Below, piece after piece: positions 1 through 14,256 of a stretch of 14,579 nucleotides of DNA. Below the pieces are notes generated by a model that worked only from the letters and a program-made list of their open reading frames with translations, did no database searches and was not told the DNA's origin. Within the stretch, counting starts at the first letter, position 1, and every line of letters begins with the position of its first letter. A program made the position numbers and the translations under genes. This DNA is from a virus (lineage: Duplodnaviria; Heunggongvirae; Uroviricota; Caudoviricetes), in the IMG/VR virus record IMGVR_UViG_2529293240_000014, one strand, 5' to 3'.

Positions 1-480
1 GTGGCGGACCTGACGTATGTTGCCACACAGGAGGGATGGTTGTACCTCGCTGGCATCAAAGATGTTTATACGTGCGAAATTGTCGGCTACGCCATGGGAG
101 AGCGCATGACAAAAGAGCTGACAGGTAAAGCCCTGTTTATGGCGCTCAGGAGCCAGCGCCCACCTGCCGGGCTAATCCACCACTCTGATCGAGGTTCACA
201 GTACTGCGCATACGATTACCGGGTCATACAGGAGCAGTTTGGTCTGAAAACATCAATGTCGCGTAAAGGTAACTGTTACGACAACGCTTCGATGGAAAGC
301 TTCTGGGGAACGCTGAAAAATGAGAGCCTGAGCCACTATCGTTTTAATAACCGGGATGAAGCCATCTCAGTAATACGGGAATACATTGAGATTTTCTACA
401 ATCGTCAGCGTCGTCACTCTCGTCTGGGGAATATCTCCCCGGCAGCCTTCAGGGAAAAATATCATCAGATGGCTGCTTAA
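1..480 (+). CDS. IS3-family transposase OrfB, C-terminal fragment (5' end outside window)
   Basis: Translation carries integrase-core motifs typical of IS3-group OrfB (HHSDRGSQY, SMSRKGNCYDNA, YNRQRRHSRLG). Stop at 478-480. Confidence 0.85.
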   Translation: MADLTYVATQEGWLYLAGIKDVYTCEIVGYAMGERMTKELTGKALFMALRSQRPPAGLIHHSDRGSQYCAYDYRVIQEQFGLKTSMSRKGNCYDNASMESFWGTLKNESLSHYRFNNRDEAISVIREYIEIFYNRQRRHSRLGNISPAAFREKYHQMAA

Positions 481-522
481 AAAAAGAACAAATGGTAGTG
501 TCCGCTATTGCCTGTACACCTC
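1..522 (+). mobile_element. IS3-family insertion sequence, 3' portion only (IS600-like); the window begins inside the element
   Basis: ORF 1..480 encodes the C-terminal DDE transposase core (HHSDRGSQY...MSRKGNCYDNA...). The adjacent minus-strand endolysin frame diverges from endolysin-like sequence at about 520-523, which places the IS end there. Exact end not resolved. Confidence 0.65.
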
Positions 523-600
523 AGTGATTAACACAGATGCTATAGCAACAGCCCCGCCACCAATAGCAACTGCAACAGCCTTGCGTAATGATGGCGACAT
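523..600 (-). pseudogene. SAR endolysin (phage 21 R-like lysozyme), N-terminal ~26 codons only, truncated by the IS insertion
   Basis: Minus-strand ATG at 600-598 overlaps the holin stop (TAATG). Translation [26 protein letters not shown] is a signal-anchor-release N-terminus; the frame then reads into IS-derived sequence and stops. Confidence 0.6.
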
Positions 601-1106: not shown

Positions 1107-1178
<72 letters not shown>

Positions 1179-1181
1179 ATA

Positions 1182-1257
<76 letters not shown>

Positions 1258-1259
1258 GC

Positions 1260-1336
1260 TGGCCCACCACCGAGAACTCGAACCTCGCACCGTCAACTTA
1301 GAAGGTTGATGCTCTATCCGGATGAGCTAGCGGTGG
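1260..1336 (-). tRNA. tRNA-Arg (anticodon UCU, reads AGA), phage argN/argO-type
   Basis: Reverse complement folds as a cloverleaf: acceptor CCACCGC/GTGGTGG (one G-U), D-arm GCTC/GAGC, anticodon stem TCAAC/GTTGA with loop CTTCTAA, T-loop TTCGAGT, encoded CCA. Confidence 0.75.
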
Positions 1337-1337
1337 T

Positions 1338-1414
1338 TGGTGGCCCTTGCTGGACTTGAACCAGCGACCTGGCGATTATGAGTCGCTCGCTCTGACCAAC
1401 TGAGCTAAAGGGCC
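1338..1414 (-). tRNA. tRNA with CAU anticodon, ileX/ileZ-like (tRNA-Ile2, lysidine type, reads AUA); Met cannot be excluded
   Basis: Reverse complement GGCCCTTTAGCTCAGTTGGTCAGAGCGAGCGACTCATAATCGCCAGGTCGCTGGTTCAAGTCCAGCAAGGGCCACCA. Perfect acceptor stem, loop CTCATAA, T-arm GCTGG-TTCAAGT-CCAGC; close to E. coli ileX as recalled. Confidence 0.8.
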
Positions 1415-1603: not shown

Positions 1604-2158
1604 TCAAAAAGCAATAACTTTTTTCTCTATACCAAAAGCCATAACCATTGGTTTGTACAAAATAAATTCTGCCACCTTTAGCCAATGCTCAATGCGTCTT
1701 TCACAGGTTCTTAAACTCCATTTCGGGTGTGCATCATTCAGCAGTTCAGCCATTTTGCGTTTGGTCATCCCCCGCCCCTCATACCGTTGCCGAAGGACGC
1801 TAATCAATCCTGGATGCTCTGCCAGCACCTCACTTATGACCCGATCAATACATAACGCCTCTGCATCAGTACAATGCGCCAGCCAGCTCTTTTGCTTACC
1901 GTTAATCATATCCCGCAAAAAAGCCTCAAGTTCAGACTTGTTCAGACCTGCTTTTTTCATCCTCCGGAGCGCCTCGTTAATTGCCGTTTTTGTCAGCTTT
2001 TTAGAGGTCAACATCAGGTTAAACATATTCCCCGTCTTACCGCCACCAATATACGACCAGCGCCCCCACATACGTAGTTTTCCCTGAATCCAGACACTTT
2101 CCAGCGTGGTGAGACGAAGGTGTTCTCCGCTTTTTCCTGTATTCGTTGGGTAAATCAT
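1604..2158 (-). CDS. Late-gene antitermination protein Q (lambdoid Q-like), 184 aa
   Basis: ATG at 2158 preceded by AAGGAGGG and overlapping the upstream stop (ATGA). Lies directly upstream of the terminator, tRNA cluster and holin; family assignment is from recalled similarity and synteny. Confidence 0.7.
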   Translation of the reverse strand: MIYPTNTGKSGEHLRLTTLESVWIQGKLRMWGRWSYIGGGKTGNMFNLMLTSKKLTKTAINEALRRMKKAGLNKSELEAFLRDMINGKQKSWLAHCTDAEALCIDRVISEVLAEHPGLISVLRQRYEGRGMTKRKMAELLNDAHPKWSLRTCERRIEHWLKVAEFILYKPMVMAFGIEKKVIAF

Positions 2159-2445
2159 AAATATCCCTCCTTTCTCCAGATTTCTTGTGTGCGAAAAACA
2201 CCTTCTGCATGCATCAGGCGTAATTCTTCTTTGGTGTAATCGCTGGTTTTTACCCGCCCGTCGATTAAATCGTGGCACGAGCTACAGGCAATCGCTGCCT
2301 GCATATCGTGTGGCTTTATCGCTGTTCCGCACGTTCCCGCCAGTCGGTAATGCGCCAGCACAGACGTTTCCGGATCGTGATTGCAGTAGCCAGGAATTCT
2401 GACGGTGCACATCTGCCCCCGCGCCGCTTTAAGTAAATCCACCAT
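2155..2445 (-). CDS. YbcO-like protein (DUF1364; putative phage nuclease), 96 aa
   Basis: Translation MVDLLKAARGQMCTVRIPGYCNHDPETSVLAHYRLAGTCGTAIKPHD...ACSSCHD resembles DLP12 YbcO with conserved Cys/His. Start overlaps the upstream stop (TAATG). Confidence 0.8.
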   Translation of the reverse strand: MVDLLKAARGQMCTVRIPGYCNHDPETSVLAHYRLAGTCGTAIKPHDMQAAIACSSCHDLIDGRVKTSDYTKEELRLMHAEGVFRTQEIWRKEGYL

Positions 2446-2613
2446 TACGCAAACTCCAGCAGCTGCGCGGCCACATTTTCGACTTGTTCCGGAGAGGAAA
2501 ATTTACGGAACAGAATCCAGTTCCACAGCACATTCAGTACAGATTTATAAACCTGCTGAAACTCGGTTTCGTCCATATTCGCAAACGCGATAGATTTCGC
2601 CCGACACCCACGG
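2445..2613 (-). pseudogene. YbcN-like (DUF1367) gene, 3' fragment separated from its 5' part by IS911
   Basis: In-frame minus-strand translation ...RAKSIAFANMDETEFQQVYKSVLNVLWNWILFRKFSSPEQVENVAAQLLEFA ends at TAA overlapping the ybcO-like ATG. It joins the 5' fragment (3863..4296) in frame once IS911 and one CGG copy are removed (600 nt total). Confidence 0.7.
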
Positions 2614-2621
2614 TGAAGTGG

Positions 2622-3790
<1,169 letters not shown>

Positions 3791-3862
3791 TGGAGCACCT
3801 GTGTTGTTCTGAGGTGAGCATATCACCTCTGTTCAGGTGGCCAAATTCAGTGTGCCACTTCA

Positions 3863-4296
3863 CGGCTACCGTCCGGATAAAAATGCTCGGTGTAAAATCC
3901 GGCCTGAATGGCTACCCACTCGCGGAAAGCCTCAAACGACTTTAGCAAAGCCGTATCACGGGTTCTGCGTGTCGCAACTGTATTCAGATATTGCTCTGCG
4001 GCTTCGCTCAGAGCTGGCGTATGTTCCCGGCCTACTGATTCACACAGGTAATCAACGAAACCGGACACCAGTTTTCGTTCGCGAGGCGTGATCGCCCCAC
4101 CGACCGGAGTCCAGTAATCGAAACCCAGTTGCAGGAGTTTGAAAAAACGCTTGTGGAATGCGTAGTTACGCACACGCTTAAAGTCTGCGTGTATCCACTC
4201 ACCTATTTTGATTTGATGCAGAAAATCGCAACTCTCCGGCGTCGCCGGGAGAAGTAATCCGGAAGAGGTTTGTTTGACCAGTTGTATATGTGCCAT
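3863..4296 (-). pseudogene. YbcN-like (DUF1367) gene, 5' fragment interrupted by IS911
   Basis: ATG at 4296 preceded by GGAGAAAG. Translation MAHIQLVKQTSSGLLLPATPESCDFLHQIKIGEWIHADFKRVRNYAFHKRFFKLLQLGFDYWTP... resembles DLP12 YbcN; the frame runs into the IS911 end at 3862. Confidence 0.75.
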
Positions 4297-4334
4297 CGGC
4301 TTTCTCCGGTGGCACGGTGTTACACAGCAGGAGT

Positions 4335-4622
4335 TCAATCCTGCTCAAGATTGTAGATGAGTTTATTCTTCAGCAAAAGCAGAAAACCAGCCTTAAAACC
4401 AATCTCTTTCAAAACCCGTAATGATGTGACAAATTCGTCCTCACGCAAAATAAAACCGTCCGTCAGAAGTCCATTACAAAAATAAAATAACACAGCACCG
4501 CTCTTCCTTTGTTGAGATTGCAAACATCTAATGCGGCAATGGCTGACAATCGCTCCATTCTCAACGCGCACAGCATAGAGGCTATTTTCACTAAAAATTT
4601 CACGCAATTCTTCGATTTTCAT
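4335..4622 (-). CDS. Hypothetical protein, 95 aa, unknown function
   Basis: ORF with start at 4622 preceded by GGAAGGA. No family recognised by eye. Sits between the hok locus and the ybcN-like gene. Confidence 0.5.
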   Translation of the reverse strand: MKIEELREIFSENSLYAVRVENGAIVSHCRIRCLQSQQRKSGAVLFYFCNGLLTDGFILREDEFVTSLRVLKEIGFKAGFLLLLKNKLIYNLEQD

Positions 4623-4751
4623 CTTCAGAATCCTTCCAGATAAATAGCTCTCCCCTGTTCGGGGTCCATCCCTCTTCTCCCTGCGCGCTACTTAAGTGAG
4701 TCGATTCTATCTGCGAAGGTGCGCGAATCAAATTCACCGGAAATAAACAAC

Positions 4752-4796
4752 AAAAAACCCGCCGAAACGCTGAGAGATCACAGCGATGGGCGGGTT
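4752..4796 (-). terminator. Terminator / 3' fold-back structure of the hok transcript
   Basis: Plus-strand aaaaaa-CCCGCC-(25 nt)-GGCGGG; on the minus strand a long hairpin followed by a U-tract, about 80 nt past the hok stop. Confidence 0.45.
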
Positions 4797-4871
4797 AAGT
4801 GCGGGTGCGTTGAGGATGCCTGACACATCAGAGGTGGGCGGGGATGGGATCAGCTCCCCACCCGGTCACTC

Positions 4872-5027
4872 TTACTTCCTGGATTCGTAGTCTACGAAGA
4901 CAGCGACCTCCGTCTGGCCGGTTCGGATTCGTACCTCACAGAGGTCTTTCCTCGTTACCAGCGCCGTCACTATGACGGTTAAACAGATGACGATCAGGGC
5001 GATTAACATCGCCTTTTGCTGCTTCAT
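4872..5027 (-). CDS. hok: Hok/Gef-family type I toxin (HokD/RelF-like), 51 aa
   Basis: Translation MKQQKAMLIALIVICLTVIVTALVTRKDLCEVRIRTGQTEVAVFVDYESRK: single TM helix plus conserved C-terminal Hok motif. ATG at 5027 preceded by AAGGAG. In-frame upstream ATGs at 5054 and 5084 give a mok-like overlapping frame. Confidence 0.85.
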   Translation of the reverse strand: MKQQKAMLIALIVICLTVIVTALVTRKDLCEVRIRTGQTEVAVFVDYESRK

Positions 5028-5034
5028 AGCCTGC

Positions 5035-5105
5035 TTCTCCTTGCCTTTCGGCATGTAAGAGGCTAACCTACATGTGCAAAGCATGAAATTGGCCTCAGAT
5101 TAATG
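5035..5105 (+). ncRNA. Putative Sok-like antisense RNA opposite the hok/mok translation-initiation region (inferred, boundaries approximate)
   Basis: Inferred from hok/sok architecture: the antisense regulator lies opposite the mok start (5054-5084). A possible plus-strand promoter is TTGCCT (5041-5046), 17 nt, TAACCT. Not directly demonstrable. Confidence 0.25.
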
Positions 5106-5254
5106 TTAAGCGTCTTGCCGGACGCGTAATGTTAACTGGGGCTTTTCTCTATCTGCCTTTTGGTGTTCATGCCTGAAGCAGATAGCCTCAAGCACCCGCA
5201 GTCATTCTACTTACCTCGCCAATATGAAATCAATCAGAAAGGTGCCCCATAAAA

Positions 5255-5941
5255 TCACTCCTTCTCTTCTTTACCGTAGTGGAGTTGACCAATTTTGATA
5301 AGAGGGCGTCCCTGAGATTTGCGGTGTAGATTGGTATCGCGCAGAGAATACACACAGCCACAATATTCCTGCTGATAGAATTTTTCGCGCTTGCTGATTT
5401 CAATCATACGGGACGAGCCGCCCTGCTTGCGCCAGTTATAATCCCAGTACACCATGCCCGGATAATGCGCGACGGCTCGCCGCCCACAGTCGTTAACCTG
5501 CTGCATATTTTTCCAGCGAGAAATGCCCAGTGAACTGCTGATCACACTGAAACCATTTTCAGCGGCGTACAGCGCTGTCCGCTCAAAACGCATGTCAAAA
5601 CACATGGTGCAACGGATCCCTCGTTCGGGCTCCCATTCCATTCCTTTGGCTCGTTCAAACCAGTTGTCTGTGTCGTAATCAGCATCAATAAACGGCACGC
5701 CGTGTTGTTCAGCAAAGCGAATATTCTCATCCTTACGAATTAAATACTCTTTCTGAGGATGAATGTTCGGGTTGTAGAAAAAGATGGTGTAGTCGATTCC
5801 CGAGGCCTGAAGCGCCTCCATCACCTCACCGGAACATGGAGCACAGCAAGAGTGCAGTAGTAGTTTGTTTGCCCCGTTTGGGAGCTCCAATTTGGGCCGT
5901 TTGAAATCAGCAACTGTCATAAATATGTTTATTGGGGTCAT
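5255..5941 (-). CDS. queH: QueH-like epoxyqueuosine reductase (DUF208 family), 228 aa
   Basis: Translation has the DUF208 hallmarks: [11 protein letters not shown] near the N-terminus, [23 protein letters not shown], and C-terminal QEYCGCVYS. No obvious SD before either candidate start (5941 or 5920). Confidence 0.8.
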
Positions 5942-6088
5942 AAAAATATCAAAGAGTGTAGCATTAGAACGGGGCTATCGGAAACAGATGTGTGACTGCT
6001 CCCCGCCCTTTCGGGCGGTCTCCTGATGATTTGAGGGTGCAGAAATCCCTCCGGTTAAGGATTAAATTTTTAACAGTGCTAAATTTAA

Positions 6089-6445
6089 TTATTCAGTTCT
6101 GGATTTTGTCGCCCTGCGTATCCGCGCTTTCGCGTTACGCTCAATCTGTATCAGCTTTTCTATATTTCTCCGCCTTTCCTGTTCCTCCTGGCGCAATAGC
6201 CTTACATCATCTGCCAGTCTGGTTTCTCTTTTTGCCACAGAGAGCATCCAGTCAAACGGCTCCACAACCGCACCGCAGATTTTACAGCGGACCTGACGCT
6301 CTTTTTCGTCAACCCGTACAGAGGCGTGATGGCAATATGGTCTTTCCGATGGCTCATAAAGAAAATTAACCTGATTACGAGGGTCATCCTCTTTTATCGG
6401 AAATAAAACGATATTGCTTAACTCATCTTCTGGTTTTATTTCCAT
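6089..6445 (-). CDS. Hypothetical protein, 118 aa, putative zinc-ribbon plus basic coiled-coil tail
   Basis: ATG at 6445 preceded by AGGAGAGGAG. Translation MEIKPEDELSNIVLF...PYCHH...CKICG...; C-terminus rich in R/E/K/Q. Sits in the lambda ninB position; no family recognised. Confidence 0.55.
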   Translation of the reverse strand: MEIKPEDELSNIVLFPIKEDDPRNQVNFLYEPSERPYCHHASVRVDEKERQVRCKICGAVVEPFDWMLSVAKRETRLADDVRLLRQEEQERRRNIEKLIQIERNAKARIRRATKSRTE

Positions 6446-6502
6446 GCTCCTCTCCTTTGATGCGAATGCCAGCGGTAATTGAAGCCTGATAGCTAATTTC
6501 AT

Positions 6503-6925
6503 TCACAGTATCGCCTCCTGAAAATTACCCTGATAGAAAGCCAGTACACGCTGCATAGCTTCGCTCTTCCGGCACTCGCGACAGATTATATTCAGGCGCC
6601 TGTCGTAGCGGCGTATTTCTCCGTCAGGTAATGACCAGATAAGGTCCGGATCAACAACAACCGGTTTCCTCACCTTTACTCTCGAGAGTTTTTTGCGGGC
6701 GCTTTGCCAGTCCTTGCGAGCCTGTTCAGACGGGAATAAGCCGTAGCCAGAATTATATACATCACCACTTGCGACCAGTTCTATGCATAAGCGACCGACA
6801 GACGCACGACTGATACCTGTTTCATCGGACAACTGCCGAATCGTGACCCGACCGTCCTGATGCACGAGTTCCACAATTCGCGTCTTCAGTTCTTCCCGCT
6901 GTTCGGGAGTAAAAGGTTTCGCCAT
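6503..6925 (-). CDS. Ren-like protein (lambda Ren family, extended), 140 aa
   Basis: ATG at 6925 preceded by AGGAGG. HTH-like segment TIRQLSDETGISRASVGRLCIELVASGDV and C-terminal motif CRECRKSEAMQRVLAFY resembling lambda Ren (KECRQSAAMKRVLAVY). Position immediately after the DnaC/P-like gene. Confidence 0.6.
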   Translation of the reverse strand: MAKPFTPEQREELKTRIVELVHQDGRVTIRQLSDETGISRASVGRLCIELVASGDVYNSGYGLFPSEQARKDWQSARKKLSRVKVRKPVVVDPDLIWSLPDGEIRRYDRRLNIICRECRKSEAMQRVLAFYQGNFQEAIL

Positions 6926-6939
6926 AAATCCTCCTGAAA

Positions 6940-7686
6940 CTACTTAACAACCCTCGAATGGCTAACATTCGGACGCCAGCTCTCCCAGTTAAAATTCACC
7001 CAGCGCCCGCCGTTCATGACCATGCGATCCATCACCCGCTCGCCGAGCAATGTTTTCATCACCTCATAGTTCAGGTTTGTCAGCATCCCCACGCTGCGCA
7101 TCGACGCTGTCCGGCGATCAACAATCTGGTGCAGCACCACCTGCTCGTTTTTCGTCTCGCGCTGAATGCCAATTTCATCAAGAACCAGCAGATCCACTTC
7201 GCACAGCTCCCGCAAAAATTTTTCGCCTGACTGCCCGTCGTCATAGCTGGCGTGCAGGGCGCTCATAACATCAGCCACGGTAACCACAATCACTGTCTGA
7301 CCGTCTTTCAGCAGGCGATTCCCGATAGCTGCCGCTAAGTGATTCTTCCCGGTACCAGGTTTTCCGCTGAACGCAAAATTTGTACACCCGGTCATCAGTT
7401 CATCGGCGATGGATTTCGCCTGGCTTAACGCGTATCGCTGGCCGTCGTTCTGCACCTGGTAATTCGCAAACGAGCATTTACGGTGCAACGGCTGGATGCC
7501 TGAGCGATTCAGAATTTTTTCCACCCGCAACTGGCGATTCAGGCGGTTGATCTCCTCGCTACGTTTCTGGCCTTCAGCAAGTTGCCACTCGCGCCACTCC
7601 GCTACCGTTCTGAATGGGGCGGTTACATGTGGCGGGGTCAGTCGGCGGATGCGTTCCAAAACGCCGCCTGTCGCAATATTTTTCAT
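6940..7686 (-). CDS. DnaC-like replicative helicase loader (IstB-like AAA+ ATPase), 248 aa
   Basis: Walker A FSGKPGTGKNHLAAAIGNRL and Walker B DLLVLDEIG; overall DnaC-like. Start lies 4 nt after the upstream gene's stop. Confidence 0.9.
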   Translation of the reverse strand: MKNIATGGVLERIRRLTPPHVTAPFRTVAEWREWQLAEGQKRSEEINRLNRQLRVEKILNRSGIQPLHRKCSFANYQVQNDGQRYALSQAKSIADELMTGCTNFAFSGKPGTGKNHLAAAIGNRLLKDGQTVIVVTVADVMSALHASYDDGQSGEKFLRELCEVDLLVLDEIGIQRETKNEQVVLHQIVDRRTASMRSVGMLTNLNYEVMKTLLGERVMDRMVMNGGRWVNFNWESWRPNVSHSRVVK

Positions 7687-7692
7687 GGTCCG

Positions 7693-8475
7693 TTACCCCC
7701 TGAAGCCTGGCGGGATCGCACTGTCCGGCAACGAGACGGTGTTAACCTGTCGGAGCAACGTCTCAGGCCGAACACCTTTCGGCGCGAACAGGCCCTGGTA
7801 TTCATTGGCGATGCTGTGTCGAATCACCTGCTCAGGTGTAAAACCCTGCTGACGGAATTTTTCCAGTTCCCGTATCGCCCCGTTAGCGCCCTGCTCCGTT
7901 CGAATCGGTTTTCGCAATGCCTGTCTGAACCGGACCCACTCATGCCAGAGTGTTTCCGGCAACCAATCGGGCAGCTCAATAGCCTCCGGCTCGAATTTTT
8001 TAGACGCTCGTTTTTGGCGAGGGGGATTTAGGGGGAGATCAGTATTTAGATCTTCCTCTTCCTCTGGTAACGCTTTTTGATCCGTTTGTGTAACGCTGGC
8101 AGCGTTACCTTTTCGTTTCAGTTCGCGTATTTTTGTTACTCGCTCGTTTGTAACCGCCCGTTTTTTAGAGCTTTTTCCGTTATGACGTTCAAAGTTAGGT
8201 AGAGAAAGCCCACCGTCATTTTCGACCAGCCATCCAACCTGAATTAACGCATCAGCAAAACCAGACATAAAAGTGATGCGATCTATTGCACTTTTTGTAA
8301 CGCCGCGAGCGTTACAATCTGCATTACCGTCTATCATTTGTTGATCCGCCCATGCCCAGAAGCGAATAACCTTCCCTAATGCGGCATCTGGATCAATATT
8401 CAGAATCTCAGCAAGCCTGAATATTTCCGGCTTATCCGGCGTAATAACCTCGAGCTTTATCCAGTTTGAAGCCAT
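7693..8475 (-). CDS. Phage replication initiation protein (YdaU-like, DUF1376; lambda O position), 260 aa
   Basis: ATG at 8475 preceded by AAGGTGA. Lies between the YdaT-like and DnaC-like genes; carries internal palindromic iteron-like repeats. Confidence 0.7.
   Translation of the reverse strand: MASNWIKLEVITPDKPEIFRLAEILNIDPDAALGKVIRFWAWADQQMIDGNADCNARGVTKSAIDRITFMSGFADALIQVGWLVENDGGLSLPNFERHNGKSSKKRAVTNERVTKIRELKRKGNAASVTQTDQKALPEEEEDLNTDLPLNPPRQKRASKKFEPEAIELPDWLPETLWHEWVRFRQALRKPIRTEQGANGAIRELEKFRQQGFTPEQVIRHSIANEYQGLFAPKGVRPETLLRQVNTVSLPDSAIPPGFRG
8089..8108. repeat. Palindromic iteron-like site TGTAACGC-N5-GCGTTAC, copy 1, inside the replication gene
   Basis: tgtaacgctggcagcgttac is a perfect 19-bp dyad. 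Flanked by half-sites (gtaacgc at 8067-8073, tgtaaccgc at 8149-8157) and an AT-rich stretch at 8110-8170. Confidence 0.5.
8296..8316. repeat. Palindromic iteron-like site TGTAACGC-N5-GCGTTACA, copy 2
   Basis: tgtaacgccgcgagcgttaca; 8-bp arms exact reverse complements. Confidence 0.5.
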
Positions 8476-8487
8476 TTGTTTTCACCT

Positions 8488-8508
8488 TGTAACGCTCGCA
8501 GCGTTACA
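8488..8508. repeat. Palindromic iteron-like site TGTAACGC-N5-GCGTTACA, copy 3, just upstream of the replication gene start
   Basis: tgtaacgctcgcagcgttaca, 13 bp upstream of the ATG at 8475 and overlapping its RBS region. Confidence 0.5.
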
Positions 8509-8552
8509 TTTAACTGATACCGAACAAAACAATCCGGCACGATTAATTTCAA

Positions 8553-8975
8553 TCAATGCACTACGACAGAATCGCCGGGCGACCCACCACCGCTGAAATG
8601 TGCTTTCCGGTAAACGGCCTGGACAGCATCATCATGCGCATCAATTGCCGTACTCAACGCTTCCTGCGCCGCCAGTAATGCACGGCGTTCCAGGGTATCG
8701 AAGATACAGAGTCGGTGACGCAGCTCACGCGGAAGAATTGCCAGAACCGCAGGGATCAGTTTCTGAATTTTTTCCCTTTGCGCTTTCGTTTCACCTTTCA
8801 ACCAACGGTGATAGATATTCTGCTGATTGTTCCAGTCCTTGCCTGGTACCAGAGACAATTCGCCGCCCCCCTGCCGCAGATATTCTTCAGTAATTGCGTT
8901 AGCGACCCACGCCTGCCCTTTTTCGGCTGCCAGGGCTAACAGCACTGATTCGATGTGCTCATGCCTGATTTTCAT
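8553..8975 (-). CDS. YdaT-like protein (Rac prophage family; lambda cII position), 140 aa
   Basis: ATG at 8975 preceded by AAGGTG. Translation MKIRHEHIESVLLALAAEKGQAWVANAITEEYLRQGGGELSLVPGKDWNNQQNIYHRW... matches my recollection of Rac YdaT. The 5' end overlaps the upstream cro-like gene by 17 nt. Confidence 0.6.
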   Translation of the reverse strand: MKIRHEHIESVLLALAAEKGQAWVANAITEEYLRQGGGELSLVPGKDWNNQQNIYHRWLKGETKAQREKIQKLIPAVLAILPRELRHRLCIFDTLERRALLAAQEALSTAIDAHDDAVQAVYRKAHFSGGGSPGDSVVVH

Positions 8976-9186
8976 GAATCACCTTCCCAGGTCGTTTTGC
9001 CTTACGATATTCGTCATAAACTTTGGGGTCGTACTGAAGTTCCCCGCCAGATGCCTCTTGCAGGCGCATCGCGCGACCTTCAGGAACCAGTTCCCCCCAT
9101 GCAGCAATGCTTGCCAGCCTAACTCCTGCGGCATTGGCAAGCTTTGTTTTGCTGCCAAAAAACGCTATAGCATCAATTTTCAACAT
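8959..9186 (-). CDS. Cro/YdaS-like small HTH regulator, 75 aa
   Basis: ATG at 9186 preceded by AAGGAG. HTH-like segment KTKLANAAGVRLASIAAWGE. Transcribed divergently from the repressor gene. Confidence 0.7.
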   Translation of the reverse strand: MLKIDAIAFFGSKTKLANAAGVRLASIAAWGELVPEGRAMRLQEASGGELQYDPKVYDEYRKAKRPGKVIHENQA

Positions 9187-10463: not shown

Positions 10464-10474
10464 TGGATTTGCCC

Positions 10475-11380
10475 CTATATTTCCAGACATCTGTTATCAC
10501 TTAACCCATTACAAGCCCGCTGCCGCAGATATTCCCGTGGCGAGCGATAACCCAGCGCACTATGCGGATGCCATTCGTTATAATACTCGAACGCCTCTGC
10601 AAGGTTCTTTGCTGCCGTTAACCCGTCTGGTTTGGGCATGATACTGATGTAGTCACGCTTTATCGTTTTCACGAAGCTCTCTGCTATTCCGTTACTCTCC
10701 GGACTCCGCACCGCCGTGTTCTTCGGTTCAAGTCCCAACATCCGGGCGAACTGGCGTGTTTCATTAGCCCGGTAGCATGAACCATTATCCGTCAGCCACT
10801 CCACTGGAGACGACGGAAGATCGTTGCCGAAGCGGCGTTCCACCGCTCCCAGCATGACGTCCTGTACTGTTTCACTGTTGAAGCCGCCGGTAGTCACCGC
10901 CCAGTGCAGTGCCTCACGATCACAGCAGTCCAGCGCGAACGTGACACGCAGTCTCTCTCCGTTATCACAGCAGAACTCGAACCCGTCAGAGCACCATCGC
11001 TGATTGCTTTCTTTCACGGCCACTCTGCCTGTATGTGCCCGTTTCGATGGCGGTACAGCAGGTTTTCGCTCAAGCAACAGCGCATTCTGGCGCATGATCC
11101 GGTAAACACGTTTGGCATTGATCGCAGGCATACCATCAAGTTCTGCCTGTCTGCGAAGCAGCGCCCATACCCGACGATAACCATACGTGGGCAGCTCTCC
11201 GATAACATGGTGTATACGGAGAAGCACATCCGTATCATCAGTGTGACGACTGCGGCGGCCATCCATCCAGTCATCGGTTCGTCTGAGAATGACGTGCAAC
11301 TGCGCACGCGACACCCGGAGACAACGGCTGACTAAGCTTACTCCCCATCCCCGGGCAATAAGGGCGCGTGCGCTATCCAC
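10475..11380 (-). CDS. insD: IS2 transposase InsD (OrfB), 301 aa
   Basis: Translation [59 protein letters not shown]... is IS2 InsD; overlaps insC as expected for frameshift-fused OrfAB. Confidence 0.92.
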
Positions 11381-11703
11381 TTTTTTGCCCGTCCATATTC
11401 AACGGCTTCTTTGAGGAGTTCATTTTCCATCGTTTTCTTGCCGAGCAGGCGCTGGAGTTCTTTAATCTGCTTCATGGCGGCAGCAAGTTCAGAGGCAGGA
11501 ACAACCTGTTCTCCGGCGGCCACAGCAGTAAGACTTCCTTCCTGGTATTGCTTACGCCAGAGAAATAACTGGCTGGCTGCTACACCATGTTGCCGGGCAA
11601 CGAGGGAGACCGTCATCCCCGGTTCAAAGCTCTGCTGAACAATTGCGATCTTTTCCTGTGTGGTACGCCGTCTGCGTTTCTCCGGCCCTAAGACATCAAT
11701 CAT
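11338..11703 (-). CDS. insC: IS2 InsC (OrfA, HTH transposase subunit), 121 aa
   Basis: Start at the [56 protein letters not shown]... Met (11703); the track's upstream extension lacks an RBS. Confidence 0.9.
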
Positions 11704-11794
11704 CTGTTCTCCAATGACTAGTCTAAAAACTAGTATTAAGACTATCACTTAAATAAGTGATACTGGTTGTCTGGAGATTCAGGGGGCCAGTCTA

Positions 11795-11836: not shown

Positions 11837-12354
11837 ATTCATTTCCTTACTGGTTGTGTGAGAACTTCAGTAAAGATACCACCAAAGCCCGGAGGTGGTG
11901 AAATAAAACCGGGCACAACACGAAGGCGCATTTCCGGTATCCATAAAGAGTCGGTCTTGTCTGTGAAATTTAAATGGTGGGAGTGCGCTTCCGGTTGTAA
12001 ATAACGACATTGCTGTGTGAAGTACCAGTTGGCGGCATCGGTTTAATTGCTGGCTGATGTCCGCCCTTTTTAAAGTGAATTTTGTGATGCGGTGAATGCG
12101 GCTATGCGCACGCGGCACAGTTAAAAGTCATGTTAGTCCTTATTGGTTTGGGTGGGAAAGCCAACTGTAATTGTTAACTGGTTAACGTCACCTGGAGGCA
12201 CCAGGCACCGCATCAACAAAGTTCACTTCGGTGATGAAAGGAAAGAGAAAATGTTGAATGTAGCTATTGAAAACCAGAACGGGTGGAATTATAGTGCACC
12301 TGCACCTCATAAAACGGGTGCCGGGATTGCTACCCCGACGATGACTACTGCGCA

Positions 12355-12378
12355 TAACCGCGCTCAGGCGGTTTTTTT
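12355..12378 (+). terminator. Terminator-like hairpin plus T-tract inside the Rha upstream extension (possible attenuator)
   Basis: AACCGC-gctcag-GCGGTT followed by TTTTT. Lies between the strong upstream RBS/ATG (12251) and the Rha-domain start (12545). Confidence 0.3.
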
Positions 12379-12544
12379 ATGCGTCAAGCACAGCCACATT
12401 CAGATTATGGTGGGGCGTGCAGGGCAGCCGCAAGGCTGGCCGGTTTCGGTAGTCACCGGTTGTAGCAACCCTGTGCGTCTCACCACCCATGAGATTGCTA
12501 CCTCTGGTGGTGAGTTATTTAAACTGACTATCGAGGCTGCCATC

Positions 12545-13099
12545 ATGGCTACTATCCTTACCCTTTCTCACCCTGACGTAACCATCGAAAATGGTCGCGC
12601 TGTCACTACGTCTGTTGCGGTTGCGGAGTTCTTCCGGAAAATGCACAAAAACGTTATTCAGAAGATCGAAACTCTCGAATGCTCGCCGGAGTTTAACCGG
12701 CTTAATTTTAAGCCCGTCACCTATACCGACGCCAAAGGCGAAAAACGCCCAATGTACCAAATCACCAAAAACGGCTTCGTTTTCCTGGTGATGGGCTTCA
12801 CTGGCAAAAAAGCCGCCGCATTCAAGGAAGCCTACATTGCTGAGTTCGACCGCATGGAGGCCGAACTGCGCCAGAATAACACCCCACCTGCTGACAAGAT
12901 GATTCCGGGTGATGGTCGCACTCTGGTTGTTCACTTCGACAAATTCGGCAATGTCGAATTCACCGAAACCGTTCCTGATGGCGCACTGGTCTGTACCCTG
13001 GAGACTTTCCGGTTTTATCTGGAAAAACAGGGATGGACTCTTGTTAACCGGGGCGCAATTAAAAATATGACTGTGGAACAATTACTTTCTTTAAAATAA
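12545..13099 (+). CDS. Rha-family phage regulatory protein; start ambiguous (12545, or 12251 with a 98-aa N-terminal extension)
   Basis: Rha-domain motifs AVTTSVAVAEFFRKMHKNVIQKIETL...KRPMYQITKNGFVFLVMGFTGKKAAAFKEAYIAEFDRME. ATG at 12545 preceded by GAGG; the in-frame ATG at 12251 has a stronger AAGGAAAGAG site. Confidence 0.7.
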   Translation: MATILTLSHPDVTIENGRAVTTSVAVAEFFRKMHKNVIQKIETLECSPEFNRLNFKPVTYTDAKGEKRPMYQITKNGFVFLVMGFTGKKAAAFKEAYIAEFDRMEAELRQNNTPPADKMIPGDGRTLVVHFDKFGNVEFTETVPDGALVCTLETFRFYLEKQGWTLVNRGAIKNMTVEQLLSLK

Positions 13100-13397: not shown

Positions 13398-13503
13398 TTA
13401 ACTGACTATTCGAAACTGAATTTATGCCAGCAATGGCAGGGATTCGCTCAACCTTAATTAAGGAGAAAAACATGAACACCAATTATGAGGTAATGACTCC
13501 AAC

Positions 13504-14007
13504 TTACTGATAGTGTTTTATGTTCAGATAATGCCCGATGACCTTGTCATGCAGCTCCACCGATTTTGAGAACGACAGTGACTTCCGTCCCAGCCTTGCC
13601 AGATGTTGTCTCAGATTCAGATTATGTCGCTCAATGCGCTGAGTGTAACGCTTGCTGATAACGTGCAGCTTTCCCTTCAGGCGTGATTCATACAGCGGCC
13701 AGCCATCCGTCATCCATACCACGACCTCAAAGGCCGACAGCAGGCTCAGAAGACGCTCCAGTGTGGCCAGAGTGCGTTCACCGAAGACGTGCGCCACAAC
13801 CGTCCTCCGTATCCTGTCATACGCGTAAAACAGCCAGCGCTGACGTGATTTAGCACCGACGTAGCCCCAATGTTCGTCCATTTCAGCGCAGACAATCACA
13901 TCACTGCCCGGTTGTATGCGCGAGGTTACCGACTGCGGCCTGAGTTTTTTAAGTGACGTAAAACCGTGTTGAGGCCAACGCCCATAATGCGTGCACTGGC
14001 GCGACAT
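13504..14007 (-). CDS. insB: IS1 InsB reading frame (normally expressed as the InsAB' frameshift fusion)
   Basis: ORF translation ...[54 protein letters not shown]... is IS1 InsB. Confidence 0.9.
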
Positions 14008-14201
14008 CCGACGCCATTCATGGCCATATCAATGATTTTCTGGTGCGTACCGGGCTGAGAGGCGGTGTAAGTGAACTGTAGTTGCCATGTTTTACGGCAA
14101 TGAGAGCAGAGATAGCGCTGATGTCCGGCAGTGCTTTTGCCGTTACGCACCACGCCTTCAGTAGCGGAGCAGGAAGGACATCTGATGGAAATGGAAGCCA
14201 C
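13926..14201 (-). CDS. insA: IS1 InsA, 91 aa (GTG start)
   Basis: Translation (V/M)[42 protein letters not shown]... with GTG start 56 nt from the IS end. Confidence 0.92.
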
Positions 14202-14256
14202 GCAAGCACCTTAAAATCACCATCATACACTAAATCAGTAAGTTGGCAGCATTACC

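What the first reader, a model, noticed from the sequence alone, without database searches (positions are those of the whole stretch)
5255..5941. QueH-type epoxyqueuosine reductase inside a prophage, next to a phage tRNA cluster
The 228-aa product has the DUF208/QueH signature ([11 protein letters not shown] ... [10 protein letters not shown] ... QEYCGCVYS). QueH is an established non-orthologous replacement for QueG in the last step of queuosine tRNA modification, so a copy in a prophage nin-type region is not normal lambdoid content. It sits about 4 kb from phage tRNA genes, one of which has a GUA-containing anticodon loop. I infer, without proof, that it could act on host or phage tRNA or on 7-deazaguanine-type nucleic acid modification. 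The gene has no recognisable SD, so expression may be unusual.
Basis: partly seen in the sequence, partly recalled or inferred. Interest (0 to 1): 0.7.

Follow-up and report, generated by a model that had tools for sequence, protein, structure and literature searches.

The report
Prophage-carried QueH tRNA-queuosine enzyme
A defective lambda-like prophage carries an intact, strongly conserved copy of QueH, the vitamin-B12-independent enzyme for the last step of queuosine tRNA modification; the host already has the B12-dependent version, and the link to the nearby phage tRNA genes is not real.

Summary
The ORF is real, on the minus strand (5255-5941), and is a clear QueH: Pfam PF02677 E=2e-65 over the full profile, all seven family cysteines, and a predicted fold matching T. 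maritima QueH. The true start is probably the second ATG (5920, 221 aa). It is accessory cargo of Rac/Qin-type lambdoid prophages, present in 995 of 5426 complete E. coli genomes, all of which also carry queG. It always lies directly upstream of a hok/sok locus. It is 79-90% identical to chromosomal QueH of other Enterobacterales and appears to have kept that gene's promoter-like TGnTAnAnT element and SD-less leader. Prophage alleles are under strong purifying selection (dN/dS about 0.02), and the gene survives in IS-eroded Shigella-like remnants. A second prophage lineage carries queH antisense to the phage operons, next to an abortive-infection gene. The most likely role is a self-expressed accessory gene that completes oQ to Q on host tRNAs without cobalamin; this is inferred, not shown. 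The tRNA link fails: the anticodons are UAC, UGU, UCU and CAU, and the "GUA" was read off the wrong strand. No 7-deazaguanine DNA-modification genes are present. RefSeq already names the gene QueH, but I found no paper on its prophage location. Moderate interest.

The parts
5255..5920 (-). queH coding sequence from the probable true start (221 aa plus stop).
   Evidence: ORF. Pfam QueH E=1.9e-65. PDB 7lc5 E=5e-22. Family N-termini align to M8. RefSeq annotates 221 aa. AF2 model and Foldseek.
5955..5963 (-). TGCTACACT, an extended -10-like promoter element lying 34 nt before the 5920 ATG (inferred promoter).
   Evidence: Invariant in both upstream contexts of prophage copies. Identical in the Erwinia chromosomal queH at 31 nt from its ATG. 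TGCTACAAT, TGCTAAAAT and TGCTACTAT occur in other relatives. Coordinates verified. The simple promoter scan did not call it.
5978..5983 (-). TTCCGA, a weak -35-like hexamer 17 nt upstream of the -10 (inferred). It lies at the upstream edge of the sequence shared by all prophage copies.
   Evidence: It matches TTGACA at only 3 of 6 positions.
5921..5949 (-). Predicted short A/U-rich 5' leader with no SD. It contains the non-conserved in-frame ATG at 5939-5941.
   Evidence: The leader diverges faster than the coding region ([21 protein letters not shown] variants).
6003..6018 (-). GC hairpin CCGCCC-GAAA-GGGCGG after the upstream ORF, with no U tract. It lies outside the shared cassette. It is the IS insertion point in some Shigella-like remnants.
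5022..5197 (-). hok/sok regulatory region, starting 57 nt after the queH stop codon. It is the constant downstream partner of queH.
   Evidence: Rfam RF01794 sok, 117 bits, E=1e-26. The downstream flank is homologous in all 82 related loci.
4872..5084 (-). mok/hokD toxin reading frames (HokD is 4872-5027).
   Evidence: Pfam HOK_GEF E=1e-22. Annotated as hokD in relatives.
6089..9186 (-). Upstream prophage early-right genes on the same strand: cro-like, ydaT, replication protein, ydaV (DnaC-like), DUF977 and a small Zn-ribbon-like ORF.
1604..4622 (-). Downstream prophage genes: rem-like, DUF1367 (interrupted by an IS at 2614-3862), YbcO and the DUF1133/Q-like antiterminator.
1107..1414 (-). Phage tRNA cluster (Ile2/Met-CAU, Arg-UCU, Thr-UGU, and a mutated Gly-UCC now reading UAC). 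It is not a QueH substrate set.

Best explanation
The gene encodes a genuine cobalamin-independent, iron-sulfur QueH epoxyqueuosine reductase.

Origin (inferred from homology). A lambdoid phage lineage captured it from an Enterobacterales chromosome together with its own short promoter and SD-less leader. It now travels as an accessory gene (a 'moron') fixed just upstream of a hok/sok module, between the replication genes and the Q-type antiterminator of Rac/Qin-like prophages.

Function (inferred, not shown). It reduces epoxyqueuosine (oQ34) to queuosine (Q34) on the host's Asp, Asn, His and Tyr tRNAs. Every E. coli already has QueG for this step. QueG needs cobalamin, which E. coli cannot make de novo (established knowledge; Frey et al. 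1988, as cited in PMC5175355). The prophage copy would therefore make completion of Q independent of B12 supply.

Expression (inferred). Transcription is most likely from the gene's own extended -10 promoter, so it can be made in the lysogen. In this window it can also be read through from the phage early-right operon.

Shown here: family membership, ligand conservation, fold, distribution, genomic context, purifying selection, and conservation of the upstream element.

Inferred: enzymatic activity in E. coli, promoter activity, expression in the lysogen, and any fitness benefit.
For: Identity:
- Pfam QueH at E=1.9e-65 over the full profile.
- T. maritima QueH structures at E=5e-22.
- AF2 model with pLDDT 78 and pTM 0.80. 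The top five Foldseek PDB hits are all QueH, with target-normalised TM-scores of 0.78-0.83.
- All seven family cysteines are present (C25, C26, C29, C104, C107, C187, C189 in 221-aa numbering). H[ST]CCAPCS is the norm in distant members too; Asp13 of the Thermotoga enzyme is the exception.

Origin:
- 79-90% identity to chromosomal QueH of Erwinia, Providencia, Photorhabdus, Ewingella and others, all in non-phage contexts.
- TGCTACACT and ATAAAC[A/G]TATTT upstream are shared with the Erwinia chromosomal gene. Related -10 elements sit at 31-35 nt in other relatives.

Maintained function:
- Among 19 distinct prophage alleles, 30 polymorphic codons are synonymous-only and 2 carry conservative changes. 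dN/dS is about 0.02 at dS up to 0.18.
- 985 of 995 carrier genomes have at least 80% of the gene.
- The identical protein survives in IS-eroded remnants where only queH-hok-rem is left.

Accessory status and autonomy:
- 995 of 5426 genomes carry it.
- K-12 Qin has relBE at the same slot.
- Two different upstream contexts share only about 66 nt before the start codon.
- In a second prophage lineage, queH lies antisense to the phage operons beside an AIPR abortive-infection gene.

Redundancy with a B12-dependent enzyme:
- queG is present in 5426 of 5426 genomes.
- QueG is a cobalamin/[4Fe-4S] enzyme (PMC5175355).
- E. coli lists QueG among its cobamide-dependent enzymes (PMC11841063).
Against: - No experimental evidence of activity, transcription or phenotype for this prophage copy was found.
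- The simple sigma-70 scan did not call the proposed promoter. The -35 is weak, so the call rests on conservation.
- No terminator separates queH from the flanking genes.
- G+C content is not atypical.
- No physiological difference between oQ-tRNA and Q-tRNA is established, so the benefit is conjecture.
- Tight linkage to hok/sok could help retention regardless of benefit.
- NCBIfam has no model that hits it.
Confidence: 0.6

Rival explanations
1. It is a lytic-cycle helper. queH is expressed mainly from the phage early-right operon after induction, so that Q-family tRNAs are fully matured while phage genes are translated. It has no role in the lysogen.
For: In this window and in most E. coli copies the gene is co-oriented with cro, the replication genes and the Q-like antiterminator. 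No terminator lies upstream.
Against: - The intact gene is retained under strong purifying selection in prophage remnants that can no longer grow lytically.
- In the second lineage it is antisense to the phage operons.
- A native-type promoter element is conserved.
- A few minutes of enzyme action on a stable tRNA pool seems a weak lever (inference).
Confidence: 0.2
2. It is a passenger with no benefit. queH was captured by chance and persists because it is welded to the hok/sok addiction module, which makes deletions of the region costly.
For: queH is immediately followed by hok/sok in all 82 related loci. The minimal remnants keep queH-hok-rem together.
Against: - Linkage can prevent deletion but not point-mutational decay. 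Yet dN/dS is about 0.02, with only V/I and D/E changes, and 985 of 995 copies are near full length.
- A second lineage carries queH next to an AIPR gene rather than in this arrangement.
Confidence: 0.15
3. It acts on nucleic acid other than host tRNA: either on the phage-encoded tRNAs nearby, or on 7-deazaguanine bases in phage DNA.
For: Only proximity to the tRNA cluster. Phages are known to use preQ0/G+ derivatives in DNA (PMC6884629).
Against: - The phage tRNA anticodons are UAC, UGU, UCU and CAU, none of them GUN.
- Carriers exist with no phage tRNAs or with different ones.
- No DpdA/TGT-like, FolE, QueC, QueD or QueE genes occur in the window or in annotated intact relatives.
- No dQ was found in any phage DNA tested by Hutinet et al..
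- oQ is made only by QueA on preQ1-tRNA (established pathway knowledge).
Confidence: 0.03

Closest known systems
QueH (DUF208, PF02677/IPR003828) epoxyqueuosine reductase. Validated genetically by Zallot et al. 2017; structure of T. maritima QueH in PDB 7LC5.
   Same: Full-length profile match, the same cysteine set, the same predicted fold, and 79-90% identity to chromosomal enterobacterial QueH.
   Different: It sits in a prophage rather than on the chromosome proper. It co-occurs with QueG in every carrier genome, whereas the Zallot 2017 abstract (recalled from memory; the paper is not held) describes organisms with both enzymes as few. It has Cys where the crystallised Thermotoga enzyme has Asp13, but Cys is the family norm.
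QueG, the cobalamin-dependent epoxyqueuosine reductase of E. coli
   Same: Same predicted reaction and the same substrate tRNAs.
   Different: Not homologous. QueG needs cobalamin plus two [4Fe-4S] clusters (PMC5175355, PMC4646009) and is core in E. coli (5426 of 5426 genomes). The prophage QueH is accessory (18%).
Lambdoid-phage 'morons' and lysogenic-conversion cargo in the nin/Q region (for example relBE-hokD in K-12 Qin)
   Same: Same slot directly upstream of hokD-rem. Variable presence among related prophages. A promoter-like element of its own. In one lineage it is antisense to the phage operons beside a defence gene.
   Different: No own terminator and no atypical G+C. The cargo is a housekeeping-type tRNA-modification enzyme rather than a toxin, defence or virulence factor.
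Phage-encoded 7-deazaguanine pathways (FolE/QueD/QueE/QueC plus DpdA; Hutinet et al. 2019)
   Same: Both involve enzymes of the queuosine/7-deazaguanine family carried by phages.
   Different: Those systems modify phage DNA and stop at preQ0, preQ1 or G+. That survey reported no QueA, QueG or QueH in any virus analysed. This gene belongs to the tRNA-specific end of the pathway and has no DpdA partner.

Membership tests
QueH (PF02677 / DUF208) | Significant full-length match to the family profile | tested here: met
   E=1.9e-65, 220.6 bits against a cut-off of 23.5, profile positions 1-174 of 175.
QueH (PF02677 / DUF208) | Conserved metal-ligand cysteines (CCAPC ... RCxxC ... CGC) | tested here: met
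   C25, C26, C29, C104, C107, C187 and C189 align with Tm C9, C10, D13, C87, C90, C169 and C171. All 120 close homologues have CCAPC, as do distant Firmicutes-type members. PDB mutants C9S and D13N mark these as positions of mechanistic interest.
QueH (PF02677 / DUF208) | QueH fold | tested here: met
   AF2 pLDDT 78, pTM 0.80. Foldseek top five hits are 7lc7, 7lc5, 9dco, 9d86 and 9deu, with target-normalised TM 0.78-0.83 and E about 1e-10.
QueH (PF02677 / DUF208) | Converts oQ-tRNA to Q-tRNA without cobalamin | not testable with these tools
   Needs queG-mutant complementation with LC-MS of tRNA nucleosides.
QueH (PF02677 / DUF208) | Host supplies the substrate pathway (tgt, queA) | not tested
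   E. coli has the full Q pathway (established knowledge; PMC9508795). Only queG was counted here.
Lambdoid-phage moron (autonomous accessory gene) | Present in some and absent from other closely related prophages at the same slot | tested here: met
   995 of 5426 genomes. K-12 Qin has relBE upstream of hokD-rem.
Lambdoid-phage moron (autonomous accessory gene) | Own promoter | tested here: inconclusive
   A conserved TGnTAnAnT lies 31-35 nt before the start in phage and chromosomal copies, and one lineage has queH in antisense orientation. The consensus scan did not call it, and no transcript data exist.
Lambdoid-phage moron (autonomous accessory gene) | Own terminator and atypical base composition | tested here: not met
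   No terminator-like site flanks the gene. G+C is 0.49, like its neighbours.
Phage 7-deazaguanine DNA-modification system (DpdA type) | DpdA/TGT-like transglycosylase plus preQ0-synthesis genes in the same phage | tested here: not met
   None among the window ORFs or in annotated intact relatives within 8-12 kb on either side.
Phage tRNA plus cognate modification enzyme pair | Phage tRNA with a GUN anticodon (Asp, Asn, His or Tyr) | tested here: not met
   Anticodons are UAC, UGU, UCU and CAU. Relatives have UCC, UGU, UCU and CAU, or no tRNAs at all.

The most novel reading that the evidence does not exclude
Prophage queH is a lysogenic-conversion gene that frees queuosine-tRNA maturation from vitamin B12. 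About one in five E. coli strains (including O157:H7, O104:H4, ST131, APEC and E. coli B) and Shigella-like genomes would then finish Q where other strains stall at epoxyqueuosine, with effects on translation or fitness in B12-poor niches. It would also be the first documented phage-borne enzyme of the tRNA-specific branch of the Q pathway, which a 2019 survey reported as absent from viruses.
Probability: 0.35. Interest if true: 0.6.

Novelty: new member of a known kind. Interest (0 to 1): 0.4.

Why it matters
Whether epoxyqueuosine and queuosine differ functionally in bacteria is an old open point. E. coli grown without B12 carries oQ, yet no phenotype is known. A natural polymorphism could make that question testable with existing strains. 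About 18% of E. coli carry a B12-independent reductase under strong purifying selection, on a mobile element, alongside the universal B12-dependent one.

There are also practical consequences. queG knock-outs in carrier strains, including the E. coli B lineage, may not give the expected oQ phenotype. Phage annotation resources (PHROG 3217, phage HannyBb) list the gene as unknown, from a start codon that removes the first cysteine motif.

Tried and rejected
- Primary QueH papers: Zallot 2017 and Li 2021, plus Miles 2011 and Frey 1988, are not held. Ligand roles therefore rest on alignment and on the PDB mutant titles, not on the papers.
- Literature searches: QueH or DUF208 with prophage, phage or E. 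coli found nothing on this gene. One apparent hit was the author name 'Quehenberger'.
- NCBIfam gave no hit.
- Promoter and terminator scan: it did not call the proposed promoter and found no terminator around queH.
- Riboswitch idea: a preQ1-type or other RNA element in the leader was rejected. Rfam finds only sok in 4600-6150.
- Host of the second prophage lineage (L106-L111): no megablast match in E. coli genomes. Two exact-pattern scans of species-representative genomes found nothing. The phage collection only shows lambdoid lysis genes at 80-92% identity.
- Other 'phage' records with QueH: the 'Bacteriophage sp.', 'Staphylococcus/Listeria phage' and 'Acinetobacter phage MD-2021a' records are unverified fragments. 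The one inspected in detail has a chromosomal context with soxR, cynX and tadA. I did not count them as phage occurrences.
- G+C content as a sign of foreign origin showed no signal.

Full report
**The observation.** The window holds an ORF at 5255-5941, but on the minus strand. It matches Pfam PF02677 (QueH) at E=1.9e-65 across the whole profile. It matches the crystallised Thermotoga maritima QueH at E=5e-22. An AlphaFold2 model built on 46 homologues (pLDDT 78, pTM 0.80) finds the five T. maritima QueH entries as its top PDB matches, with target-normalised TM-scores of 0.78-0.83. NCBIfam has no model for it. PHROGs places it in phrog_3217, 'unknown function', whose profile starts only at residue 41.

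**Ligands.** Seven cysteines (C32, C33, C36, C111, C114, C194, C196 in 228-aa numbering) align with T. maritima C9, C10, D13, C87, C90, C169 and C171. The PDB holds C9S and D13N mutants of the Thermotoga enzyme, so these positions are of mechanistic interest. The Cys-for-Asp difference is not a defect. All 120 closest homologues have CCAPC, and so do distant Firmicutes-type members; Thermotoga is the exception.

**Start codon and translation signals.**
- Family N-termini align to the second methionine, and RefSeq annotates 221 aa.
- The seven codons before it vary freely among alleles ([28 protein letters not shown]). The remaining 221 codons show only two conservative changes.
- Homology with the Erwinia chromosomal gene continues upstream of the 5920 ATG, but the 5941 ATG has no counterpart there. 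The probable CDS is therefore 5255-5920.
- Neither ATG has an SD. The closest chromosomal relatives lack one too, so this is a trait of the gene lineage, not of the phage copy.

**Context.**
- The window is a Rac/Qin-type lambdoid prophage riddled with insertion sequences (IS at 1-524, 2614-3862, 10464-11794 and 13489-14256).
- The gene order on the minus strand is: cro-like, ydaT, replication protein, ydaV, DUF977, small ORF, queH, hok/sok, rem-like, DUF1367 (IS-split), YbcO, DUF1133/Q-like, four tRNAs, holin.
- An intact version at 99.9% identity is in E. coli FDAARGOS_944.
- Exactly the same 221-aa protein is on record in thousands of assemblies. These include IS-rich 4.5-4.7 Mb genomes of Shigella type, where in two cases almost the whole prophage is gone but queH-hok-rem remains. 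In those cases an IS abuts the hairpin about 75 nt upstream of the ORF's first ATG.

**Frequency.**
- Megablast finds the gene in 995 of 5426 complete E. coli genomes (18%), 985 of them at 80% or more of its length. It is mostly single-copy, almost always chromosomal, and RefSeq names it 'epoxyqueuosine reductase QueH'.
- Carriers include O157:H7, O104:H4, ST131, APEC strains, strain 042 and an E. coli B derivative.
- queG is present in all 5426 genomes, so every carrier has both reductases.
- Among 50,697 phage records only Escherichia phage HannyBb carries it, labelled hypothetical. Other protein-level hits are unverified fragments or bacterial DNA filed as phage.
- IMG/VR has 161 viral contigs with close relatives.
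- At the same slot, directly upstream of hokD-rem, K-12 Qin carries relB-relE instead. The gene is thus swappable cargo, not prophage core.

**Origin and promoter.**
- The nearest non-phage relatives (79-90% identity) are chromosomal QueH proteins of Erwinia, Gibbsiella, Photorhabdus, Providencia, Proteus, Ewingella, Pantoea and others. Their housekeeping contexts are varied, for example between purL and glrK in Erwinia.
- Prophage copies occur in two different upstream contexts. These become alignable only about 66 nt before the 5920 ATG.
- That shared stretch contains TGCTACACT (5963-5955), an extended -10-type motif, with a weak -35 (TTCCGA) 17 nt upstream.
- The same TGCTACACT lies 31 nt before the Erwinia gene's ATG, followed by the same ATAAAC[A/G]TATTT. 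TGCTACAAT, TGCTAAAAT and TGCTACTAT occupy the equivalent place in other relatives.
- I infer that the gene was captured with its native promoter and a roughly 28-nt SD-less leader. The consensus scan did not flag this promoter, and there are no transcript data, so this is inference from conservation.
- Rfam finds no riboswitch there.

**Selection.** Nineteen distinct prophage alleles differ at 30 codons synonymously and at 2 codons by V/I and D/E. Pairwise dN/dS is about 0.02 at dS up to 0.18. This argues for a maintained protein function inside prophages, including defective ones. Linkage to hok/sok alone would not explain it.

**A second lineage.** Six IMG/VR contigs (L106-L111) carry a QueH 87-89% identical to this one, in a different lambdoid prophage that is absent from E. 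coli genomes. There the order is:
- repressor on the plus strand;
- cro-like, cII-like, O-like, DnaC-like and DUF1627 genes on the minus strand;
- an AIPR abortive-infection gene, queH and five unknown ORFs on the plus strand;
- holin and lysozyme on the minus strand.

queH is therefore antisense to the phage operons, inside an accessory island beside a defence gene, and must use its own promoter. I could not identify the host.

**The tRNA idea.**
- The four tRNAs read CAU, UCU, UGU and UAC. Queuosine occurs only in GUN-anticodon tRNAs (PMC9508795).
- The 'GUA' is the plus-strand complement of UAC.
- That tRNA is itself a damaged copy of the phage tRNA-Gly(UCC) found in relatives. Its anticodon has changed from TCC to TAC, a loop base has changed, and one base is deleted in the 3' acceptor strand.
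- HannyBb has queH and no tRNAs, and strain 042's prophage has only Gly and Thr. The proximity is coincidental, since tRNAs commonly sit downstream of Q in lambdoid phages (established knowledge).
- No DpdA or preQ0-synthesis genes are present, so a DNA-modification role has no support.

**Most likely function.** QueG is a cobalamin/[4Fe-4S] enzyme (PMC5175355) and one of E. coli's few cobamide-dependent enzymes (PMC11841063). E. coli does not make B12 de novo, and cobamide was shown long ago to be required for oQ-to-Q conversion (Frey et al. 1988, as cited; content recalled from memory). QueH needs no cobalamin (Zallot 2017 abstract, from memory; paper not held). The best-supported reading is that the prophage supplies a self-expressed, B12-independent finish to queuosine on host tRNAs. 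Activity, expression in lysogens and benefit are all inferred.

**Known or new.**
- The protein family, its reaction and its RefSeq name are known.
- I found no paper noting that E. coli/Shigella prophages carry QueH.
- The 2019 survey of 7-deazaguanine genes in viruses states that no QueA, QueG or QueH homologue was found (PMC6884629).
- I therefore rate this a new member of a known kind, in an unreported setting, of moderate interest. Its value is that it makes the oQ-versus-Q question and the B12 link testable with existing strains.

Noticed in passing
window 1107-1178 (-): The tRNA that ARAGORN calls Val(UAC) is a mutated copy of the phage tRNA-Gly(UCC) present at the same place in FDAARGOS_944 and strain 042. 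The anticodon has changed from TCC to TAC, a loop A has become G, and one base is deleted in the 3' acceptor strand. It is probably a pseudo-tRNA; if charged with Gly it would be a missense suppressor.
   Followed up: partly
window 1-524, 2614-3862, 10464-11794, 13489-14256: There are four insertion sequences in 14.6 kb. By size and ORFs, from memory, they are IS600-like, IS911-like (splitting the DUF1367 gene), IS2 and IS1. An integrase fragment follows the IS1. This pattern is typical of Shigella genomes, and the closest intact prophage is in E. coli FDAARGOS_944.
   Followed up: partly
window 12302-12378 and 12403-12490 (+): Rfam finds isrK (61.5 bits) and a C4 antisense RNA (75.7 bits) just upstream of, and inside the 5' part of, the long Ash/Rha ORF (12143-13099). 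This resembles a P1/P7-type antisense immunity element in a lambdoid prophage.
   Followed up: no
window 5255-5941; PHROG phrog_3217; phage HannyBb L003 8001-8687: Phage resources treat this gene as unknown. The phrog_3217 profile begins at residue 41, so its members were called from an internal Met that removes the CCAPC motif. HannyBb labels the gene hypothetical. A bacterial contig filed as 'Acinetobacter phage MD-2021a' calls its chromosomal QueH a 'putative prophage protein'.
   Followed up: partly
L106-L111, about 5980-8557: A second lambdoid prophage lineage, with unidentified host and absent from E. coli complete genomes, carries queH next to an AIPR abortive-infection gene. Both are antisense to the phage operons, within a roughly 7-kb island of otherwise unknown plus-strand ORFs.
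   Followed up: partly
L096 and L097, about 8832-9000 (equivalent to window 6016): In two IS-rich, Shigella-like chromosomes the prophage upstream of queH has been replaced by an IS. The IS abuts the GC hairpin about 75 nt upstream of the queH ORF's first ATG (about 95 nt before the probable start at 5920). The promoter-like region and the queH-hok-rem block are left intact.
   Followed up: partly
L104 (E. coli B-ZidR) 6990-7655: A derivative of E. coli B carries queH in its Qin-like prophage (DicC/DicB side). Widely used B-lineage laboratory strains may therefore have a second, B12-independent epoxyqueuosine reductase.
   Followed up: no
window 6089-6502 (-): The small ORF just upstream of queH (137 aa as the longest ORF; relatives are annotated at 118 aa as hypothetical) has a sub-threshold zinc-ribbon match (TFIIB type, E=2e-4). 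Its function is unknown.
   Followed up: no
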